The notes below the pieces were generated by a model. That model was not told where the DNA came from. It saw only the letters and a program-made list of their open reading frames with translations, and ran no database searches. From a phage, in sequence record PX915676.1: DNA of 64,000 nucleotides; one strand, written 5' to 3'. Both the position numbers and the translations under genes were made by a program. Each line of letters opens with the position of its first letter. Position 1 is the first letter of the stretch. Below, in pieces: positions 2,862 through 62,400 of the stretch.

Positions 2862-3279
2862 TCCCCGTGCCTACTCCCCGTTATTCTTTCCCCGTGTATA
2901 CCATCCTATTCATTAGCTACCCGTTTATTTAGTTCCCCTTTAAAGAGTGAGAGAAAGGCTATACTCTGATAATGATTAGATTAAGGCACTATGAATAGGC
3001 TAATAATACCCATAAGCAATAGCCCACATCCCCCATAGTTTGATTGTAAATAGTTTCAATAGTAATGATTATGAGTGCAATAATGATGTATGTATTAATT
3101 AAGTGGAAAGATTATGTTTGATGTTTATTGTTTCTTTTATTACTTTCTTTTTTCAGCGTACATGAGCGTAGCGAATGGTCTTTGATGTTTGAGTTAACTA
3201 ATTATTTAAGTGGTATATTATTACCGCACTATCTTGCTATGTTTCCCCGTGGTCTGTTCTGCGGTTGTGTGTTCCCCGT
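2862..3279. repeat. five copies of TCCCCGT (2862, 2875, 2889, 3244, 3273)
   Basis: Direct inspection; three copies spaced 13-14 nt apart, two more 350 nt downstream. Confidence 0.45.
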
Positions 3280-3445: not shown

Positions 3446-3474
3446 TTGACAGCCTTTTCCTTTATTATATAGTT
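3446..3474 (+). promoter_or_regulatory. sigma70-type early promoter (TTGACA-N16-TATAGT)
   Basis: Consensus -35 TTGACA at 3446-3451 and TATAGT at 3468-3473, about 45 nt upstream of first plus-strand gene. Confidence 0.55.
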
Positions 3475-4417: not shown

Positions 4418-4669
4418 ATGGCTATCAAAGAAGTTAAGTTATCAAACGGCTTTTCTTGTTTTGTTGGTGGGCAATCTATCGAGTTTAATACACTTGATGG
4501 TCAGATAATCTTGCCTGTTATCACTTTTTGCAGGATGGAATATCAGCCTCTTAAAGATTGGCTAGCCTTTGCTGATTTCGAAATTACCCGCGATGATTTC
4601 AAGTCGATCTATATTGACGGTGATTTGTCACTGGCTAACCTGTTAAGTGAGGGATTGATACATGGTTAA
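4418..4669 (+). CDS. hypothetical protein
   Basis: Track ORF 83 aa; CAGGAG SD. Confidence 0.6.
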   Translation: MAIKEVKLSNGFSCFVGGQSIEFNTLDGQIILPVITFCRMEYQPLKDWLAFADFEITRDDFKSIYIDGDLSLANLLSEGLIHG

Positions 4670-4916: not shown

Positions 4917-5018
4917 TGATTCATGATTATTTTTGGCGTTGCTTGTTCGTTGCTGCGGTGGCGTTATTCGTCGCTGATATGCTGTATTCTTACATTCTCT
5001 AACTAAAGGTTGATTGTC

Positions 5019-5384
5019 ATGGGTATTATTAAATTCGTAGTGAAAGTATTTGTAGGCTTCTTCCTTGTCGTTCTCCTGTTAGGTGTCCTGCTGTCGGCTA
5101 TGGGTAGCGTTAAGGCTGCAACGTTCTCCCCTGCTACGGTTGACGGTTTACAGTGCACCTATTTGATCGAAAACTATGAAACTGGTAAAAAGTCACCTAA
5201 AGTTATTATTTTGCATGTAAATGATTTCGATCATGTGCAATCATATGATAAAACTATTCAACTGGTAAATGAAACCACTGGTAAGCAAATTACGGTCGAT
5301 CACTTGATGCGCTCATCGTTGACACTCTTTGATGAGTCCATGAATGAAATGGCATCCGGTAACGGTCAATGTGTAAATCCATAG
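5019..5384 (+). CDS. hypothetical membrane/secreted protein
   Basis: Track ORF trimmed to ATG 5019; N-terminal hydrophobic stretch FVVKVFVGFFLVVLLLGVLLSAMG; AAAGG SD. Confidence 0.55.
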   Translation: MGIIKFVVKVFVGFFLVVLLLGVLLSAMGSVKAATFSPATVDGLQCTYLIENYETGKKSPKVIILHVNDFDHVQSYDKTIQLVNETTGKQITVDHLMRSSLTLFDESMNEMASGNGQCVNP

Positions 5385-5460
5385 GCTTAATCTTTCTCCT
5401 GTATTGTGCCGTAGTCATGCCTATGGTCATAATTTATCTGATGCTTTAAATCCTTCCTAT

Positions 5461-5489
5461 AAGCCTCGCTATGAGGCTTTTTTCTTTTA
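5461..5489 (+). terminator. intrinsic terminator
   Basis: AAGCCTC-GCTAT-GAGGCTT hairpin followed by TTTTTTCTTTT. Confidence 0.8.
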
Positions 5490-5767
5490 TAAGGTGATTG
5501 TATACCTTACTCCCTTTTAGCTCGTTGTGATGCGTTACAGGACGTTAAATACTGCTTTACAAGCCGTTTCCTATGATGTATCACTCGCGCCCGTTCTTTT
5601 ATCTATCCCACTATAAAAAGTTTAAAATAATTTGCTTTACCCTATTGCAACCTCATCTGATTAGCGTATACTTCATTTCATCGGGTACGATGTAAAACAT
5701 ACAAGGCAAGAAATTGCCCCGCTCTTTAAAAATCAGGCTAGAAAGTGAAAATATTCTTAAAAAGAGT

Positions 5768-5796
5768 ATTGACACCGAAAACAGCCTGATATATAG
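5768..5796 (+). promoter_or_regulatory. sigma70-type promoter (TTGACA-N17-TATAGT)
   Basis: Perfect -35 at 5768-5773, 17-nt spacer, TATAGT at 5791-5796; A/T-rich upstream. Confidence 0.65.
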
Positions 5797-5900
5797 TGAG
5801 CATAGTCAGCGATGACTTAAAAAATCCCGCTCTTTAAAAACTTATCATCTTGCCCTTTCGCATAGATTCACGCGAGATAAGGGAAAGGAATTAAAAGAAG

Positions 5901-6035
5901 ATGATAAAAAGAGTTGCAAACGTGGTTAAAGTAGTCCATACTAACCACAAGTTAGCAGATACACCGCTAACAAGTTCCCAAATCAACGTATCGCGGGAAA
6001 GGTGGCACATAGTGCAGCGAGTAGTTCAGGGTTAG
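5901..6035 (+). CDS. small ORF (44 aa) in promoter-proximal leader
   Basis: ATG with AAGGA SD 11 nt upstream; MIKRVANVVKVVHTNHKLADTPLTSSQINVSRERWHIVQRVVQG; below track size cut-off; weak support. Confidence 0.25.
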   Translation: MIKRVANVVKVVHTNHKLADTPLTSSQINVSRERWHIVQRVVQG

Positions 6036-6217
6036 GCGTCCTGTTAATGAATCAGTAAGCCTTCAATGTGACAGTGATTAGCAGACACTTTAAAAGGCTA
6101 AACGCTCTTTAACAATATGAATCATTAGTTAAGCCTCACCGCTTAATCTTCAATCAAATAAAGCTGATTGATATATCCTCCCAATAGCGGGAACGACGAA
6201 AAAAGATTAAAAAGCGG

Positions 6218-6246
6218 TTGACAGCGAAAACAACATGATTCATAAT
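6218..6246 (+). promoter_or_regulatory. sigma70-type promoter (TTGACA-N17-CATAAT)
   Basis: -35 TTGACA 6218-6223, 17-nt spacer, CATAAT 6241-6246; shares TTGACAsCGAAAACA with promoter at 5768. Confidence 0.65.
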
Positions 6247-7169
6247 GAGAACTCACTAAGCAAATCATCGCTTCAGTGAAAAGCGTAACAACGGCTAACA
6301 GTTGCATAGTGTGAGAAAGCACACTGATAGATTTACCGCTCTTTAATAATTTAAACATTCTCCTATATCGGTTGAATATGTTAGATGATAATAACCATCG
6401 GATAACATACCAGATAAAACGGCGTAAAACTCCCTAAATTATCAGGGTAAACAGTTTTACACTCCCTTACTGGAAACGTCACCACTGATAAACGGATTCA
6501 TCGAGTACACGCAAAGACTTAAGCTAATCGCCCACGGTTAAGGGTAGCGGCGGTCATCGCTAACATGGTGCTACGGTGAAAGAAGTTAATCAGGGTAGGC
6601 AATCCCGACGAATTAACGCTCAATTGAGAGCGGCGGGGAGTGGTTAAAAAGTGGCAAATTGCTATTTAACAATAAGGTTTAGTGTGAACGTTTACGATGT
6701 GAACGGCTTGAGATTCATCTTATGATGAAAGTACATAGTCGGTTTATGTAGTAAACTTGCCGAAAGATATAAAACGTCGGAACATTAGACGGTCAATGAC
6801 TCTTTCGCAATAGTATCCCGTAGTGGGCGATGACTAGCGATTGAGAGTTGATATAAAAGGATAGGCGAGAGCGAAAGCAAAGTAAACGATATTGCCGACG
6901 GTTACAATAACGTAACTAATTAGAGTCGGACGCACTGCCTTATTGTGATGATTGATCATCGCTATCAGGTCGGCTTCGTTTATAGCGACTAATTAAAGAT
7001 ACCAGATGAAACATCACGGATAAGGAGGCGGCAAGGTTAAGTCCTGATAAGACCGCCTCACTTACCTATAACTACTTAATAGTGAGTGGTTAGAGTTAAG
7101 TTAATAGTGACTTAAACAAGCTCATAGAGAGCGGGGCAATAGCGCCCTTACAATTGAAAGGTGAATATC

Positions 7170-8069
7170 ATGGCTAAAATCTTTACTCTGGTTAACGAAT
7201 CCGGTTTTAATGCTCTGGCTAACAACATTCGTAGTAATAACGCGGCGATCAAACAAGATGTTTCTAACTTCCTGTTAGGGCACTTACAGCACTTCCGCAG
7301 CAATGGTAAGAAGTTAGATGTATTGCAGGCGGCGGTTGACTTCCTGTTAACCGAACGTTTCCGCGATATGGATGTTATTGCCACCGCGATTACTTTCTTA
7401 ACTCCTATCAAGTTTAACACCGACGCGGCTAATGGTCGTAAAAAGTGGATTAATCTGGAAGGTGAAGCGAAAGCTAAAGAAGATGCGAAAGAAGCGCAAA
7501 TTAAAACCAAAATGGAGCAAAACCGTGCCCGCTGGTCAAACGCTTTCGAAAACTTCGCGTTAGGCCGTGAAATTGAAGTCGATAACCCTAACTTTTACAA
7601 GGGTTGTAATGACAACGTGGCGGCACACCTGCAAATACCGGCGAAAAACAAGGAAGATTTTAATCAGGATATTTACGCTTTAGTTGAACGCTTGAATGCA
7701 ATCCGTATTGAAGCCAAATTACTGGCTGATGAGCGCAACGGCGCTACTAGTGATAACACTATCGCCCTGAGTGAAGAAGTAGGGAAGGTTAAAAAATCCT
7801 TTGATTCACTCATCAAGAAAGTCACGGCCTCAACGGTAGCGATCTCAGATGATTATCTGATGAACGCATCAAGCAAAGAACTGGAATCTCTGGACTCTTA
7901 CGCTGATGAAATGGAAAAGACTATTGCATCTATGCAGGAGAAGTTAGAAAGTCTGCGTGGTCGTATCTCTTCAACGGTTGCTACCCGTACCGAACAAGCG
8001 GCGAAAGCAGAAGAGGAAGAAGTATTGCGTAAAGCGGCTGAAATTATGGCGGCACGTCAGGCGGCATAA
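7170..8069 (+). CDS. hypothetical protein (299 aa)
   Basis: Track ORF trimmed to ATG 7170 (MAKIFTLVNESG...) with AAAGGTG SD; followed by strong terminator. Confidence 0.65.
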   Translation: MAKIFTLVNESGFNALANNIRSNNAAIKQDVSNFLLGHLQHFRSNGKKLDVLQAAVDFLLTERFRDMDVIATAITFLTPIKFNTDAANGRKKWINLEGEAKAKEDAKEAQIKTKMEQNRARWSNAFENFALGREIEVDNPNFYKGCNDNVAAHLQIPAKNKEDFNQDIYALVERLNAIRIEAKLLADERNGATSDNTIALSEEVGKVKKSFDSLIKKVTASTVAISDDYLMNASSKELESLDSYADEMEKTIASMQEKLESLRGRISSTVATRTEQAAKAEEEEVLRKAAEIMAARQAA

Positions 8070-8092
8070 GTAAGACAATTTGAATAAACATA

Positions 8093-8126
8093 AGGCGCTA
8101 CCTTAACGGGTAGTGCCTTTTCTTTT
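8093..8126 (+). terminator. intrinsic terminator
   Basis: GGCGCTACC-TTAAC-GGGTAGTGCC hairpin (one G-U pair) plus TTTTCTTTT. Confidence 0.8.
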
Positions 8127-8180
8127 ATCAGTGCATTGATTCAGTGCATTAATCAAAGAATCTAATCAAAGGTGACGATC

Positions 8181-8892: not shown

Positions 8893-9336
8893 GTGGCTAA
8901 ATCAAAAATCAGCATGAAGGGCGGGCGTTGTTTTTCTATCTCTGAACTGGAGAAAGAGAAACCGAAGGCAACTAATCACGTTAGTAAGCGTAGTTTAAAA
9001 CGTCGTGCTGCAAAGGCTGAGGCTGAATCCCACGTTCCTTCCAGTGTGGCAAAACGTGTAGGCCATCGTGTCCATCGTGCTGATGCGTTGTTGTTAGCTG
9101 ATCATAGACGTTCTTTGTTAAAGAGCGGGGGAGCTAAAACCGAAGAAGAGAAGAAGCTAGAAATCTTCTGTAATGGTCGCACTCGTGGTAAACAGAAGTT
9201 TAAGGGTAGCACGAAAGACCCGCAGGCATTCCCTAAGACAAGCCAGTGTGCACCTGATGTTTTCTACGCAGATAGTAAACACAAGTGGGGCGTTGAAAAA
9301 TACATCGACCCCATCAAAGAGGCAAGGGTTAAGTAG
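8893..9336 (+). CDS. hypothetical basic protein
   Basis: Track ORF 147 aa, Lys/Arg-rich; GTG start with AAAGGAA SD. Confidence 0.5.
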   Translation: MAKSKISMKGGRCFSISELEKEKPKATNHVSKRSLKRRAAKAEAESHVPSSVAKRVGHRVHRADALLLADHRRSLLKSGGAKTEEEKKLEIFCNGRTRGKQKFKGSTKDPQAFPKTSQCAPDVFYADSKHKWGVEKYIDPIKEARVK

Positions 9337-9416
9337 TAGGAATATAGCCCCCTCTTTTAGTACTGTGACGCTCTTTCTGTAGCGTCGTGCCCTCTCCCCA
9401 TTTGAAGCTTCCGCAT

Positions 9417-9439
9417 AGCCGCCTTTGAGCGGCTTTTTG
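9417..9439 (+). terminator. intrinsic terminator
   Basis: AGCCGC-CTTTGA-GCGGCT hairpin + TTTTT. Confidence 0.7.
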
Positions 9440-9501
9440 CGTTGCTGTAAGTGCATTTGCGAGTGTATTTATAGCAACGGTTATGTGTTGCTTTCAGGTT
9501 T

Positions 9502-9527
9502 GCCCCGGCTACGGCTGGGGCTTTTTT
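9502..9527 (+). terminator. intrinsic terminator
   Basis: GCCCCGGC-TACG-GCTGGGGC hairpin + TTTTTT. Confidence 0.85.
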
Positions 9528-9577
9528 ATGCCCGTAAAAACAGGAGGTATCAAGTTCTGATAACAACGGCCCAGCTA

Positions 9578-9967
9578 ATGTTGACATTGACTATTTATTA
9601 TGAGGCAGGGAATCAGCCAACCGCATGTAAGGCTTTAGTTGCGGATACCGTAATAAATAGAATGGCACAACGAAAACTGACCGCTGAACAGGTGATAAGA
9701 CAAAAGAACCAGTTTGAGTGGATTCCGGTACTATTAAAACAGGAGAAACCTTATAAACGTTATGTAAAGCTGATTCGTGATAAAAATCCGATGACTAAGC
9801 AAGCCATTGGAGAAAGCGAGCGGCTAGCTAAACGTGCCCTTAAGAAGAATTATGTTCCGCTGTACAGTGGGACTTACTTTCAGAGTAAGAGCGAAGGGGT
9901 GCCAAAATGGTATGCCAATCCTATGTATTGTGGTGATTTAGTGTTCGATAACAGCTCTAGGGAGTAA
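9578..9967 (+). CDS. SleB-like cell wall hydrolase domain protein (putative)
   Basis: Track ORF 9425-9967 trimmed because its 5' part spans two terminators; from ATG 9578: ...TACKALVADTVINRMAQRKL...QKNQFEW...YSGTYFQ...VPKWYANP resembles the SleB/Hydrolase_2 pattern; start codon uncertain (AGGAGG at 9542 has no canonical start at ideal spacing). Confidence 0.45.
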   Translation: MLTLTIYYEAGNQPTACKALVADTVINRMAQRKLTAEQVIRQKNQFEWIPVLLKQEKPYKRYVKLIRDKNPMTKQAIGESERLAKRALKKNYVPLYSGTYFQSKSEGVPKWYANPMYCGDLVFDNSSRE

Positions 9968-13168: not shown

Positions 13169-13244
13169 GCGCTCTTAGCTCAATGGATAGAGCAGTAGCC
13201 TTCTAAGCTATTGGTTACAGGTTCGAGTCCTGTAGGGCGCACCA
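13169..13244 (+). tRNA. tRNA-Arg (anticodon TCT)
   Basis: Hand-folded cloverleaf: acceptor GCGCTCT/AGGGCGC, D-stem GCTC/GAGC, anticodon stem GTAGC/GCTAT with loop CTTCTAA, T-arm ACAGG-TTCGAGT-CCTGT, discriminator A and encoded CCA. Confidence 0.85.
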
Positions 13245-59441: not shown

Positions 59442-62400
59442 TTATCTCCGCCCGCCAACAGCAAACTCTATCGTTAAACCATTGATAGCAGCATTACTGT
59501 TAACATCATTATCTATAACATTATAGAAAAGGTATGGATGGTTCAGTCTCACAGAGACATGCCTGTCAACACCGATCGTGTATGTCTTAGATGTGTGTGG
59601 GTGTCCATATTCATTTGAGAATTGACTACCACCAGCTTCAAATATGTAAGTACCTGAACCAGTTGTCTGAGGTCGGAACCTGTTAATATGCTTCTGATTC
59701 CACTCATTTGTCACATTATCAAAATCTATACCAGTCCTCTCTAACCTCATTTCCAGAGGCTTCTCTATAATAACATCGTTTAGCCTGTCATAGAAATAGT
59801 CAAGAGCACCTACATCCACCTGATAGAATCCCCTCAAGAACGAACCTACTATAGTAACCCTCTGTCTGAAGTTTGTTGCATCCTTTCTCCAAACAAGTTC
59901 TTTAATAGATGGGTCATCCCAAGTGATTTCTTGGAAGTCAGACCAGATTGGACCTCTTTCTAAAACAGGAGGATCAACAAGACCAATACACTGAGCATAT
60001 GGTATAGTACGGAAAGACCAAGTATCAAACTCGTAGTTCCATACAGCAGCTTTAGTACAAGCGAAGCTTTCTTTTGGTTCTCCCGGACCTACGTACAGAA
60101 CCCAAACTTCTTTCTTATCCTGATGCAAGTGTACTCGAGTTGCTAGAGGGTTAACCAGACACACCTCGTTAATCAACATGTTCTTGACACGGTTAGATGC
60201 AATTGACTTCTTGGTTGCACCATTGTGTAAGATTACATCGTTCTGAGTAACTACGAAGTGACTACCTTCTACTTCAACCACACACTCAGGAGCAAGGATA
60301 CCAGAGTCATTAAAGAGCTTCTTGAACATTAGAGGTTGGTACGTGTTATTAGTCGGAGAACCAATATACGTTTCAAACTCTGTGTAAACGAACAAGTAAT
60401 CTTTAAGAGGTAGGATATCAATCAAGCTACCATTAGAGTCAGCTAAATCAATGTAACCAGCATATCCATTCTCTAGAGCCTGAGTCTGCCCTACAATGTT
60501 AGAAGCTAAGTCCGAAGACACAACTCGATCATAGGCAAAGTCATCCCACAGCGTAGGAGCCTTGTTCTCATTGGCAAAGTTAGACCAACGAAGACGAAGC
60601 GGATAGTTAGTGGTAACACCAGAAGCATTAGCTTCTCTCATATTCAGAGCAAAAAGACGGTTGTTAAAAGATCTTACTCTTTCACATTTCCAGTTAAACT
60701 TCTTGACTGAAGGGTTTCCATCGTTATCAACAACTGTTTGCTCACCCCACCCCGGAAGGTCTACAAAGTATTCTGATTCGAATTCTTTTACCTGAGGAGT
60801 TTCATAGTGAGTTGTAGCAACTGCACAGTTAGAGATAACAGCGTGATACCAAGGATAGTCATCAAAAGCATCGTAGTCCTTCTGAGTCATCTGACTGACA
60901 GTACATGTTACGTTAATCTCTCCTTTACGAAGAGCAACCAGTTTGATAGATTTACCAGTAACTGAGGTTGTAGAAACATAACCAGTTTTATCAACAGACC
61001 ACTGATAAGAGTACTCACCTTCTGGAGAAGCTGTGGCTGTAATGACAATCTCTTCACCAACATCAAGAGAAGCACTGACAATATCTAAGGTTACAGACGA
61101 CAAAGGGGTTGCCAGTAAAGAAGCTCTTGCAAAACCTTCAATATCATTCACGTTAGAGTAGTCGTAGAAGTTGTTACCTTCATACATCCCTGACGTATCA
61201 ATACCGGATGTAGGCTCAGCAAAATAAATTGTCTCTTCACTTTCAGGAGGAGTTACTACTTCTTCCTCTTGAGTTTCTACTGACGCTGACACAGGAGCGG
61301 CAAATGCCATAGCACTTGTCATCATTGTCCTTCCAGCTAAATCCACACGTACAGTACAGACAGCAACTCTGTTACCTTCTTCAGTGGTAGCTGTAATCTC
61401 AGTAAAACCAGCAAGTAGAGCGTTGATCGTCCCTTGTGTGCTAGTCCCTGATACTGTTGCAATATTTGGATTAGAAGAGGTCCAAGTAATATTTTGATTA
61501 GGGGCGTTAGCAGGAGAAAGGGTAGCAGTTAAGATATACTGAGAACCTCTACTCACAGTAACATCTGACTGGCTTAAAGAGATACTATCAATCTGAGGGA
61601 TAGAAACAATCTCACAAGAAGCAGTCTTAGTCCCGTTATCAGCAGTGATTGTTACATTACCTTCTCCATTCGCTGTAATGACAGCAGTTAAAGAGTTGGC
61701 GTTAGGGGTTACGGATACAATAGAAGCATTATTGCTTGACCAAGTTACAGGGGTCTTGCCAGTAACAGCCGTGAGAGTAGTAGTCCCCCCTTTACGAATT
61801 GTAACAGTGTCTTGACTCAAGAAGATGCCTGAATCACCGTCGATAATATTAACAGCAATCTGAGCCACCACGGATTCATTGGCAGTAGAGATAGTTACTA
61901 CAAGATTACCCTCTTTCTCAAAAGATGTTAGAGTAGCAAGTTTAGAGTCACTAGGGTCTACCGTAATACTTCCATAGGATGAGTTACTAACCTCCCAAAT
62001 AAGATCAGTATTGTTAGCATCAGCAGGGAGAAGAGAAACCTCTAGATTCTTGGTCTGATTGAAGTTCATTGAGATAGTTGATTCTTTAGGAACGATCTGA
62101 GAAACAACTGGATAAATCTTAATTGAGGCAGAAGCCTTCTTAGTGACTGTAGCAACCTTACGGCTAATATCAGTCAAGCTTTCATCTGTCAGTTTGTATA
62201 ACTTCTTATCCGTACCTACAACAAGAAAGCTATTACCTGCGCTATAATAATCGAAAGGCATAGAAACGAAAGACAGAGGGGTTAAATCCTTATCTTCATC
62301 TACATAAGAAAGAGGGGCATTGCCCCCCGTCTTAAATACTCTCTGCTCAACAAATCGAGCATTTATAGCATTAGTGAAAGCATTAGGAGCTAAGTCTGTC

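What the first reader, a model, noticed from the sequence alone, without database searches (positions are those of the whole stretch)
5490..7169. 1.7 kb almost ORF-free region behind two strong sigma70 promoters, with repeated CCGCTCTTTAA boxes
Two near-consensus promoters (5768, 6218) fire into a stretch with no ORF above 44 codons before the gene at 7170. The sequence (C)CCGCTCTTTAA[AC]AA recurs at 5717-5732, 5826-5840, 6103-6115 and 6337-6350, with inverted partial copies (GAGAGCGG) at 6612 and 7127. Candidate non-coding RNA(s), replication origin, or regulator-binding array.
Basis: seen in the sequence. Interest (0 to 1): 0.5.

Follow-up and report, generated by a model that had tools for sequence, protein, structure and literature searches.

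The report
BoxA-guarded large structured phage RNA
The "empty" 1.7 kb of this phiEco32-like coliphage looks like an rRNA-operon-style early transcription unit: host-type promoters, each followed by a host anti-termination signal (BoxA), lead into a roughly 0.8-0.9 kb untranslated RNA whose fold is kept by compensatory mutations, and I found no description of this RNA in Rfam or in the papers I could read.

Summary
The window is a Kuravirus (phiEco32-like) phage, and 5490-7169 is the unannotated "spacer" between the phi32_125 and phi32_124 homologs.

The repeated box matches the gamma-proteobacterial BoxA consensus GYTCTTTAANA, the NusB/NusE(S10) site of rrn leaders and lambda nut sites. There are four copies, all on the + strand (about 0.6 expected in the whole window). 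In 15 relatives and 9 more distant metagenomic phages, BoxA copies are all in sense orientation. They mostly alternate with sigma70-type promoters and usually follow a small hairpin whose stem covaries.

Downstream of the last BoxA, about 800 nt (6350-7150) form a multi-domain RNA structure:
- 99% of pair cells are kept across 23 phages.
- 75 of 245 pairs carry compensatory double changes (6-11 in slid controls).
- G.U cells outnumber A.C cells 584 to 24, so the RNA is + sense.
- There is no codon periodicity and no Rfam match.

Best reading: Nus-factor (rrn-type) antitermination protects a long untranslated early RNA from Rho. That RNA is a leader or ncRNA co-transcribed with the phi32_124 homolog, and its function is unknown. 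No origin signature was found. The promoters were already reported. I found no prior report of the BoxA elements or the RNA.

The parts
5461..5488 (+). Intrinsic terminator that ends the first early operon (phi32_128 to phi32_125 homologs). It marks the upstream boundary of the unit.
   Evidence: 8-bp GC-rich stem followed by TTTTTTCTTTT. Annotated as a terminator in 4E8, SU7 and SU10. The SU10 paper places a terminator here.
5645..5672 (+). Promoter P1 (TTGCAA-16-TATACT), weak in this phage. Predicted start near 5679.
   Evidence: 9/12 match. Relatives carry TTGACA-16/17-TAATAT at or near this place.
5705..5718 (+). Hairpin GGCAA-GAAA-TTGCC (GNRA loop) lying 2 nt 5' of BoxA 1. It is boxB-like by position.
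   Evidence: Read from the sequence and folded. Other phages have different hairpins at the same place (GCAC..GTGC, AGGCTA..TAGCCT, GGCAC-TTA-GTGCC).
5721..5731 (+). BoxA 1: GCTCTTTAAAA.
   Evidence: Exact match to GYTCTTTAANA.
5769..5797 (+). Promoter P2 (TTGACA-17-TATAGT) with an A-rich upstream tract. Predicted start near 5804.
   Evidence: 11/12 match. Conserved in Kuravirus relatives. The SU10 paper reports sigma70 promoters in this spacer.
5804..5817 (+). Hairpin AGTCA-GCGA-TGACT (GNRA loop) 11 nt 5' of BoxA 2.
   Evidence: Folded. Compensatory variant ATTCA-GCGA-TGAAT in 4E8 and phiEco32; loop GTGA in SU7.
5829..5839 (+). BoxA 2: GCTCTTTAAAA.
5842..5908 (+). Nearly invariant ~67-nt hairpin element between BoxA 2 and the next promoter.
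   Evidence: Almost identical in all 11 phages shown. Folds at -17.7 kcal/mol. One compensatory A-U to G-C change in SU7-type phages.
5914..5942 (+). Promoter P3 position. It is degenerate here (TTGCAA-17-CATACT, 8/12).
   Evidence: Read. At the equivalent place SU7, EK010, TH34, PAS59 and TH43 have TTGACA-16-TAGAAT, 11/12.
5943..6100 (+). Optional RNA module, an insertion shared with 4E8, KBNP1711 and TH34.
   Evidence: Present or absent among relatives. An internal stem covaries (CAGGG..CCTG versus CGGGC..CCCCG).
6104..6114 (+). BoxA 3: GCTCTTTAACA. With the preceding C it equals the rrn-type core CGCTCTTTAACAA.
6218..6246 (+). Promoter P4 (TTGACA-17-CATAAT) with an A-rich upstream tract. 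Predicted start near 6253.
   Evidence: 11/12 match. Both hexamers are identical or nearly so in the relatives examined (the -10).
6307..6326 (+). boxB-like hairpin GTGTG-AGAAAG-CACAC, 11 nt 5' of BoxA 4.
   Evidence: Three pairs carry compensatory changes within Kuravirus. The stem is fully replaced in distant clades (GUGAUAG/CUAUCAC, GCGGGC/GCCUGC, AGGGU/ACCCU) while the loop stays purine-rich.
6338..6348 (+). BoxA 4: GCTCTTTAATA. It is always 826-936 nt upstream of the ATG of the next gene.
6350..6648 (+). Structured RNA, domain I, closed by the helix 6350-6362 / 6636-6648.
   Evidence: RNAalifold and pair counts, helices 7-18.
6649..6667 (+). Hairpin overlapping the invariant BoxA-like TGCTATTTAACAA (6660-6672). 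Position 4 is A rather than C.
   Evidence: It departs from the consensus at position 4, one of the two positions whose mutation abolished Nus-factor association at suhB.
6669..6946 (+). Structured RNA, domain II, closed by ACAATAAGGT / GCCTTATTGT.
   Evidence: Helices 20-31. The closing helix covaries in distant clades (AATATGG/CCTATATT, AATTTGG/CCAAATT). Covariance model R1 of 6751-6875 hits L039 at E=2e-30.
6947..7148 (+). Structured RNA, domain III, a row of hairpins.
   Evidence: Helices 32-40.
7170..8069 (+). phi32_124 homolog (299 aa, function unknown), co-transcribed with the RNA. Its RBS is AAGGTG at 7158-7163.
   Evidence: PHROG 13018, no Pfam family. The gene and the RNA region each match 98 phage records, and a homologous gene-free BoxA region precedes the gene in all 9 distant contigs.
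8092..8128 (+). Strong intrinsic terminator after the gene. Probable end of the unit, or the first barrier to read-through.
   Evidence: 12-bp stem plus a T-run.

Best explanation
The region is an early, host-RNA-polymerase transcription unit built like an rRNA operon leader. Several sigma70 promoters stand in tandem. About 25-160 nt after each start the transcript carries a small hairpin and then a BoxA element.

Proposed mechanism:
1. BoxA RNA is bound by host NusB/NusE(S10).
2. With NusA, NusG and SuhB this converts the elongating polymerase into a Rho-resistant, fast complex.
3. That complex can transcribe the roughly 0.9 kb of untranslated RNA that follows (about 6253-7169) and continue into the phi32_124 homolog.

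The untranslated RNA is not a passive spacer. About 800 nt of it (6350-7150) adopt a three-domain secondary structure kept under purifying selection. It is therefore a functional RNA: either a stand-alone or processed ncRNA, or an unusually elaborate 5' leader of the downstream gene.

Shown here by computation: the BoxA match, its sense orientation, its near-regular alternation with promoters, its conservation across clades, and the RNA structure, strand and non-coding nature.

Inferred: promoter activity, Nus-factor binding, protection from Rho, and any function of the RNA.
For: 1. BoxA identity. All four boxes match the published gamma-proteobacterial consensus GYTCTTTAANA. The window holds 6 matches against 0.63 expected, with four within 630 nt on one strand.

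2. Arrangement. In 15 relatives, strong promoters and BoxA copies alternate in most phages, and no BoxA lies on the - strand of the region. Nine more distant phages (downstream protein 47-70% identical) show the same plan, with the last BoxA 870-936 nt before the ATG.

3. BoxA core GCTCTTTAA is invariant although the flanks are mosaic.

4. The hairpins 5' of BoxA change sequence but keep pairing. The order hairpin then BoxA is that of the rrn leader (boxB, boxA, boxC; PMC10250234).

5. The other 11/12 early promoter, at 3446, is followed at once by a coding sequence and has no BoxA. This is as expected if BoxA is needed only where the RNA is untranslated.

6. Rho terminates untranslated RNA, and BoxA protects long untranslated CRISPR-array transcripts from it; the Nus complex does the same for rRNA.

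7. RNA structure in 23 phages: 99.0% of pair cells are standard pairs (32-46% when partners are slid); 75 pairs have double changes (32 in shuffles, 6-11 slid); 291 cells are double-changed (10-26 slid). The same structure transferred to a plain MAFFT alignment that includes the distant clades gives 84.2% paired against 35-44%, 157 against 71-100 pairs, and a covariation score of 0.428 against 0.08-0.13.

8. Strand: 584 G.U cells against 24 A.C cells. The MFE z-score is -8.3 for the + strand and -5.5 for the - strand.

9. Non-coding: variable sites are 0.448/0.446/0.442 by codon phase, indels are mostly 1 nt, and no ORF is conserved.

10. The SU10 genome paper states that, as in phiEco32, three sigma70 promoters lie in this spacer.
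Against: There are no transcript, binding or termination data for this region in anything I could read.

No GU-rich boxC-like element was seen by eye after the boxes.

The third promoter is degenerate in this phage (8/12), so BoxA 3 may have no promoter of its own here.

The RNA is highly structured and G-rich relative to C. That alone could make it a poor Rho substrate, so the need for BoxA is not proven.

Salmonella phage 7-11 has about 1 kb of untranslated DNA before its first early gene but no BoxA in its last 14 kb.

From my own recollection, not checked here, rrn-type complexes are not reported to bypass intrinsic terminators. If so, this mechanism alone would not explain expression of genes beyond the terminators at 8092 and 9417-9521.
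Confidence: 0.7

Rival explanations
1. The hairpin-BoxA modules are nut-like sites. Their main purpose would be processive antitermination of the whole early operon, reading through the intrinsic terminators at 8092, 9417-9521 and 11922, possibly with a phage-encoded N-like factor that binds the GNRA hairpins. Protection of the RNA would be secondary. This is compatible with the best explanation and could hold together with it.
For: No + strand sigma70 promoter of 11/12 or better exists between 6218 and 20000, while several strong + strand terminators do. The hairpin loops are GNRA-like or purine-rich and conserved in position. The authors of the 7-11 study argue that a relative must antiterminate early transcription by an undefined strategy.
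Against: The order is hairpin then BoxA, as in rrn, not BoxA then boxB as in lambda. No small arginine-rich early protein was found, and the proteins of the first operon have no informative Pfam hit. SU7 is annotated with a promoter after the equivalent terminator.
Confidence: 0.25
2. The BoxA array is a decoy. Four or five BoxA copies on very abundant early transcripts would titrate NusB/S10/SuhB away from host rrn operons and help shut off host ribosome synthesis.
For: There are several BoxA copies behind near-consensus promoters with A-rich upstream tracts. From my own recollection, not checked here, BoxA overexpression was reported to compete for a host factor (Friedman and colleagues, 1990).
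Against: A decoy does not explain the near one-BoxA-per-promoter pattern, or the constant distance of the last BoxA from the structured RNA. Distant relatives have only 2-3 copies. The phage already has a dedicated sigma70 inhibitor, gp79.
Confidence: 0.1
3. The region is the replication origin. The promoters would activate it, or the structured transcript would act as a primer in the manner of ColE1 RNA II or T4 R-loop origins.
For: Strong promoters fire into non-coding DNA, and a conserved structured transcript could be a pre-primer.
Against: There are no iterons, tandem repeats, DnaA boxes or AT-rich unwinding element. GC content is 0.37-0.42, like the rest of the window, and the GC-skew switch lies at about 3000, where the gene strand changes. 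The promoters are sigma70-type, and gp79 shuts such promoters off by the middle phase, when the phage DNA polymerase is made.
Confidence: 0.05
4. The boxes are DNA operators for a repressor or activator, or the region hides frameshifted protein genes.
For: A repeated 10-13-mer lies near promoters. A few records annotate small ORFs here.
Against: The boxes are asymmetric, always in sense orientation, lie downstream of the promoters, and match an RNA element's consensus. There is no codon periodicity, indels are 1 nt, ORF frames are inconsistent, and G.U pairs are tolerated only on the + strand.
Confidence: 0.03

Closest known systems
E. coli rrn operon leader (tandem P1/P2 promoters, boxB-boxA-boxC, Nus-factor/SuhB antitermination complex)
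   Same: Tandem strong sigma70 promoters with A-rich upstream tracts. A hairpin then BoxA early in the transcript. BoxA 3 is CGCTCTTTAACAA; from memory the rrn BoxA is TGCTCTTTAACAA. A long, highly structured, untranslated RNA follows.
   Different: No boxC was recognised. There is one BoxA per promoter rather than one shared leader. The RNA is about 0.8 kb, unrelated to rRNA (no E. coli match), and is followed by a protein gene. It sits in a virulent phage.
BoxA upstream of CRISPR arrays in Salmonella and other bacteria (Stringer et al. 2020, PMC7665894)
   Same: BoxA is placed at the start of a long untranslated transcript to counter Rho. It is a non-rRNA use of the host Nus complex.
   Different: The cargo here is a single large folded RNA, not a repeat array. 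There are several promoter-BoxA modules in tandem. The context is a phage.
Lambda nutL/nutR sites with N protein
   Same: A phage early transcript carries BoxA plus a small hairpin with a GNRA-like loop just after an early promoter.
   Different: The order is reversed (hairpin 5' of BoxA). No N-like protein was found. The phage is virulent rather than temperate. There are four modules in a row.
suhB 5' UTR BoxA (Baniulyte et al. 2017, PMC5725501)
   Same: Same consensus and the same host factors, acting on an mRNA leader.
   Different: The suhB-type BoxA sites in that survey lie within 50 nt of the start codon, and at suhB the complex promotes Rho termination. Here the last BoxA is about 830 nt upstream of the ATG.
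Large structured ncRNAs linked to phages and prophages (GOLLD, ROOL) and other large bacterial ncRNAs (OLE, HEARO)
   Same: Similar size class (600-800 nt), a multi-domain covariation-supported fold, many GNRA loops, unknown function, phage context.
   Different: No Rfam family matches, even at E up to 5. This RNA has identifiable promoters and BoxA elements. It was found only in E. coli Gordonclarkvirinae and a few related uncultured phages.

Membership tests
BoxA (NusB/NusE binding element of Nus-factor antitermination) | Sequence matches the gamma-proteobacterial consensus GYTCTTTAANA | tested here: met
   Four exact matches at 5721, 5829, 6104 and 6338. Six in the window against 0.63 expected.
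BoxA (NusB/NusE binding element of Nus-factor antitermination) | Lies on the transcribed strand, downstream of a promoter, early in the transcript | tested here: met
   All copies are on the + strand, 25-160 nt after predicted starts. They alternate with promoters in most of 24 phages and none lies on the - strand of the region. The promoters are predicted, and reported for this spacer in SU10 and phiEco32.
BoxA (NusB/NusE binding element of Nus-factor antitermination) | Bound by NusB-NusE; loss of function with point mutations in the core | not testable with these tools
   Needs EMSA, ChIP and genetics.
BoxA (NusB/NusE binding element of Nus-factor antitermination) | Confers resistance to Rho-dependent termination on downstream transcription | not testable with these tools
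   Needs reporter fusions with and without bicyclomycin, and nus or suhB mutants.
rrn-type leader (boxB-boxA-boxC) | Hairpin (boxB) 5' of BoxA | tested here: met
   Hairpins lie 0-15 nt 5' of BoxA 1, 2 and 4, with covarying stems. None is obvious before BoxA 3 in this window.
rrn-type leader (boxB-boxA-boxC) | GU-rich boxC 3' of BoxA | tested here: inconclusive
   No GU-rich element was seen by eye after any box. No formal model was available.
Lambda-type nut site | BoxA followed by a boxB hairpin, and a phage N-like arginine-rich protein | tested here: not met
   The order is reversed. No small early ORF has an arginine-rich motif. No informative Pfam hit for the first-operon proteins.
suhB-type BoxA translational repression | BoxA within about 50 nt of the regulated start codon | tested here: not met
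   The last BoxA is 826-936 nt from the ATG in all phages examined.
Known RNA families (Rfam 15, including GOLLD, ROOL, OLE, HEARO, 6S, riboswitches, introns) | Covariance-model score at or above the family threshold | tested here: not met
   Only the tRNA at 13169 passes in the whole window. In 5400-7300 the best E-values are 0.85-4.7 and all scores are far below the gathering thresholds.
Structured non-coding RNA (generic) | Compensatory base changes exceeding controls, strand asymmetry of G.U, and no coding signal | tested here: met
Replication origin | Iterons or initiator boxes, an AT-rich unwinding element, a skew switch | tested here: not met

The most novel reading that the evidence does not exclude
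The roughly 800-nt RNA is a new class of large trans-acting phage RNA. It would be made in bulk within minutes of infection from an rRNA-operon-like gene that borrows the host's rRNA antitermination and RNA-folding machinery. It would act in host take-over or counter-defence, for example by sequestering a host RNA-binding protein, or as a ribonucleoprotein with the always-adjacent phi32_124-family protein. On this reading it is more than a leader.
Probability: 0.35. Interest if true: 0.85.

Novelty: new variant of a known kind. Interest (0 to 1): 0.72.

Why it matters
BoxA/Nus antitermination is textbook for rRNA and lambda, and has recently been extended to CRISPR arrays and suhB. A virulent coliphage that places a BoxA after nearly every promoter of a tandem array, in order to make a large folded RNA, would be a further and very clean natural use of it. 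It would also offer a candidate answer to how phiEco32-type phages keep host polymerase going on early transcripts.

The RNA itself is the larger prize. It is an ~800-nt, three-domain RNA backed by covariation and absent from Rfam. It is encoded by phages that are abundant, said to be largely resistant to the defence systems tested in the BASEL study, and now available on E. coli K-12 (Bas86-93). Its function can therefore be tested directly by genetics, probing and cryo-EM, which has been hard for other large ncRNAs of unknown function.

On the practical side, 98 GenBank genomes leave this region blank or annotate spurious small ORFs in it.

Tried and rejected
- Rfam, at gathering thresholds and at E up to 5: nothing credible.
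- Similarity to E. coli genomes: none. An invariant 27-mer is absent from 185,579 species genomes. It occurs in only 7 metagenome contigs and a second conserved 27-mer in only 5 IMG/VR contigs, those of any length being Kuravirus-sized.
- Homology with the ~1 kb leader of Salmonella phage 7-11. An eyeballed similarity was not confirmed by nhmmer or by covariance model R1, and 7-11 has no BoxA in its last 14 kb.
- Long-range helix between the BoxA 4 flank (6331-6341) and the RBS (7156-7166), predicted by RNAalifold. It shows no covariation within Kuravirus and is only 70.7% paired in the wider alignment. Not claimed.
- "Anti-BoxA" pairing of 7125-7140 with BoxA 1 (94% complementary). The GAGC arms belong to local hairpins that covary, so this is not claimed.
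- The - strand BoxA match at 9116 and the + strand match at 59897. The first is absent from 4E8 and phiEco32; the count of two is close to the chance expectation of 0.63.
- gp36-type promoter (TAATGTATA): none on the + strand of the region.
- N-like arginine-rich early protein: none found.
- Literature: no paper in the held library links phiEco32 or Kuravirus to BoxA, antitermination at this locus or an ncRNA. Savalia 2008 and Pavlova 2012 could not be read.
Full report
IDENTITY AND CONTEXT. The window is a phiEco32-like podophage (Kuravirus, Gordonclarkvirinae). The stretch 5400-7250 matches 98 phage records at 60-97% identity, all from Escherichia or Shigella hosts. In phiEco32 the region is the 1.9 kb unannotated gap between phi32_125 and phi32_124, inside the early gene block, which host sigma70 polymerase transcribes. 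The window is circularly permuted. The genome end and the switch of gene strand lie near 3000, which is also where GC skew changes sign.

THE OBSERVATION. It holds.
- On the + strand no ORF exceeds 44 codons between 5490 and 7169.
- The two promoters score 11 of 12 consensus matches each.
- CGCTCTTTAA occurs four times on the + strand within 630 nt, against 0.13 expected in the whole window.
- The "inverted partial copies" exist at 6626-6633 and 7127-7134, but they are arms of local hairpins in the downstream RNA.
- The SU10 genome paper had already noted that, as in phiEco32, three sigma70 promoters lie in this "spacer region" and that a terminator precedes it. The promoters are therefore prior knowledge.

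WHAT THE BOXES ARE. They match BoxA, the RNA element bound by NusB/NusE(S10) that nucleates Nus-factor antitermination.
- Baniulyte et al. derived GYTCTTTAANA as the gamma-proteobacterial consensus. All four boxes match it exactly. The window has six matches against 0.63 expected.
- The two other matches are a - strand site at 9116, inside a coding sequence and absent from 4E8 and phiEco32, and a + strand site at 59897. Two stray matches are close to the chance expectation.
- The invariant TGCTATTTAACAA at 6660 has A instead of C at position 4, one of the two positions whose mutation abolished Nus-factor association at suhB. It is part of a hairpin and helix of the RNA, and I do not count it as a BoxA.

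ARRANGEMENT.
- Across 15 relatives, promoters scoring 10/12 or better and BoxA copies alternate in most phages, with no BoxA on the - strand of the region. Exceptions are places where the promoter falls below that threshold, as for the degenerate third promoter of this window (8/12, read). Where this window has that weak site, other phages have TTGACA-16-TAGAAT.
- The flanks are mosaic. Modules of about 150-190 nt come and go, and SU7-type phages carry a small annotated CDS. The core GCTCTTTAA, however, never varies.
- BoxA 1, 2 and 4 are each preceded by a small hairpin: GGCAA-GAAA-TTGCC, AGTCA-GCGA-TGACT and GTGTG-AGAAAG-CACAC. Their stems change by compensatory substitutions.
- The order hairpin then BoxA is that of the rrn leader (boxB, boxA, boxC), not that of lambda nut.
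- The other 11/12 early promoter, at 3446, is followed immediately by a coding sequence and has no BoxA.

DEEPER CONSERVATION. A protein search with the downstream gene found uncultured relatives at about 70% and 47-50% identity. Their contigs (L038-L048) all have 1.4-3 kb without called genes upstream of the homolog. Each has 2-3 sense-strand BoxA copies, mostly alternating with TTGACA-type promoters. The last BoxA lies 870-936 nt before the ATG and follows a hairpin whose stem sequence is entirely different (GUGAUAG/CUAUCAC, GCGGGC/GCCUGC, AGGGU/ACCCU, CAAAG/CUUUG), usually with a purine-rich loop.

THE STRUCTURED RNA. From just after BoxA 4 to about 20 nt before the start codon, the sequence is conserved in the manner of a folded RNA.

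In an alignment of 23 phages (A1, 89% mean identity) RNAalifold predicts 245 pairs, of which 75 have at least one sequence with both sides changed and the pair kept. Counting that structure against its two controls gives:

| Measure | Observed | Shuffles | Slid partners |
|---|---|---|---|
| Pair cells that are standard pairs | 99.0% | 94.3% | 32-46% |
| Pairs with a double change | 75 | 32 | 6-11 |
| Double-changed cells | 291 | 75 | 10-26 |

None of 500 shuffles reached any observed value.

The structure has three parts:
- domain I, 6350-6648;
- domain II, 6669-6946, closed by ACAATAAGGT/GCCTTATTGT;
- a 3' row of hairpins, 6947-7148.

As an independent check I mapped this Kuravirus-derived structure onto a plain MAFFT alignment that adds the nine distant sequences (A3, 56% mean identity):

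| Measure | Observed | Slid partners |
|---|---|---|
| Pair cells that are standard pairs | 84.2% | 35-44% |
| Pairs with a double change | 157 | 71-100 |
| Double-changed cells | 592 | 127-212 |
| Covariation score | 0.428 | 0.08-0.13 |

A covariance model of one sub-domain (6751-6875) finds the 70% clade at E=2e-30, with many compensatory changes.

Further properties:
- The RNA is + sense: 584 G.U cells against 24 A.C cells. The MFE z-score is -8.3 for the + strand and -5.5 for the - strand.
- It is not coding. Variable sites are spread evenly over the three phases, indels are mostly 1 nt, and stop-free stretches are short and in inconsistent frames.
- No Rfam family matches.
- Nothing similar exists in E. 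coli genomes or in one genome per bacterial species.

MECHANISM. The shown facts are those above. The inference runs as follows. Host polymerase starts at the tandem promoters early in infection. The nascent BoxA recruits NusB/S10 and, with NusA, NusG and SuhB, forms an rrn-type complex. That complex resists Rho, which otherwise terminates untranslated RNA. This lets the ~0.9 kb untranslated RNA be completed and the polymerase continue into the phi32_124 homolog, up to the strong terminator at 8092.

This is the logic shown experimentally for CRISPR arrays and described for rRNA. It also explains why BoxA is present only where untranslated RNA follows a promoter. I put 0.7 on this reading.

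A compatible second role is read-through of the downstream terminators in the nut manner. I can neither show nor exclude it. There is no strong promoter between 6218 and 20000, but no N-like protein was found either. From my own recollection, not checked here, rrn-type complexes are not reported to bypass intrinsic terminators.

FUNCTION OF THE RNA. It remains open. The RNA region and the downstream gene each match 98 phage records, and a homologous region precedes the gene in all nine distant contigs. This suggests a functional link, as a leader or as a ribonucleoprotein. The protein gives no clue: it has no Pfam family, a model of moderate confidence, and no significant structural neighbour. 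No terminator separates the RNA from the gene, so it is at least made as a leader. Whether it is processed into a stand-alone RNA needs transcript mapping.

RIVALS. A Nus-factor decoy, a replication origin or primer RNA, DNA operators, and hidden genes were all considered. Each is disfavoured for the reasons listed under the rival explanations.

NOVELTY AND LIMITS. The promoters are known. I found no report of BoxA elements, antitermination at this locus, or a structured RNA in phiEco32-like phages in the searchable library, and Rfam has no such family. The authors of the 7-11 study state that the antitermination strategy of that relative is undefined. The two primary phiEco32 papers could not be read, so a passing mention there cannot be excluded. 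All functional statements are predictions from sequence.

Noticed in passing
window 5842-5908: A ~67-nt hairpin element between BoxA 2 and the next promoter is almost invariant in all Kuravirus and Suseptimavirus genomes examined, even where the flanks are mosaic. SU7-type phages carry one compensatory A-U to G-C change. Its role is unknown.
   Followed up: partly
window 5943-6100; L002 (phiEco32), about 185 nt after BoxA 2: The promoter-BoxA array is mosaic. Structured modules of 150-190 nt are present in some phages and absent in others, and SU7-type phages carry an annotated 66-aa CDS (SU7_114) in the array. It looks like shuffling of RNA modules between phages.
   Followed up: partly
L030 (Salmonella phage 7-11) 12865-13917: Phage 7-11 also has about 1 kb without annotated genes between its right end and its first early gene, 151, whose product starts MAKL like the phi32_124 family's MAKI. 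It has no BoxA in the last 14 kb and no detectable homology to the Kuravirus RNA by nhmmer or the covariance model. It may be an analogous long leader.
   Followed up: partly
window 9116-9126 (- strand): An exact BoxA consensus match in antisense orientation inside the phi32_120 homolog CDS. It is absent from 4E8 and phiEco32, so it is probably chance.
   Followed up: yes
window 9000-9600: A locally GC-rich patch (0.47-0.49 against about 0.40) at the end of the phi32_120 homolog, with three terminator-like hairpins in a row on the + strand (9417, 9440, 9502).
   Followed up: no
window 4418-4669 and 5010-5384: The small early proteins homologous to phi32_127 and phi32_125 are labelled "polymerase" and "terminase" in GenBank and PHROGs, although they are 83 and 124 aa with no Pfam support. 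The second has an N-terminal hydrophobic segment. These are probably propagated mis-annotations.
   Followed up: partly
window 6404-6420 and 6996-7012; 6414-6427 and 6769-6782: Short motifs recur inside the structured RNA: ATACCAGAT[AG]AAAC and ATAAAACG. They could be repeated protein-binding or tertiary-contact elements.
   Followed up: no
window 5721-5739 and 5783-5801: The sequence just after BoxA 1 (AATCAGGCT) is complementary to the spacer and -10 region of promoter P2 (AGCCTGAT). A transcript from P1 could fold a hairpin across P2. The extension GCTCTTTAAAAATCAGGCT is also present in the distant contig L041.
   Followed up: no
window 13169-13244: tRNA-Arg (anticodon TCT). It is the only Rfam or ARAGORN hit in the window.
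   Followed up: yes
L038, L039, L041 (Logan contigs), about 950-2500: In the more distant relatives the promoter-BoxA array is preceded by a further 1.5 kb or so without called genes, and then by divergently oriented genes. There the RNA unit appears to be the first early transcription unit. The content of that extra gene-free DNA was not examined.
   Followed up: no
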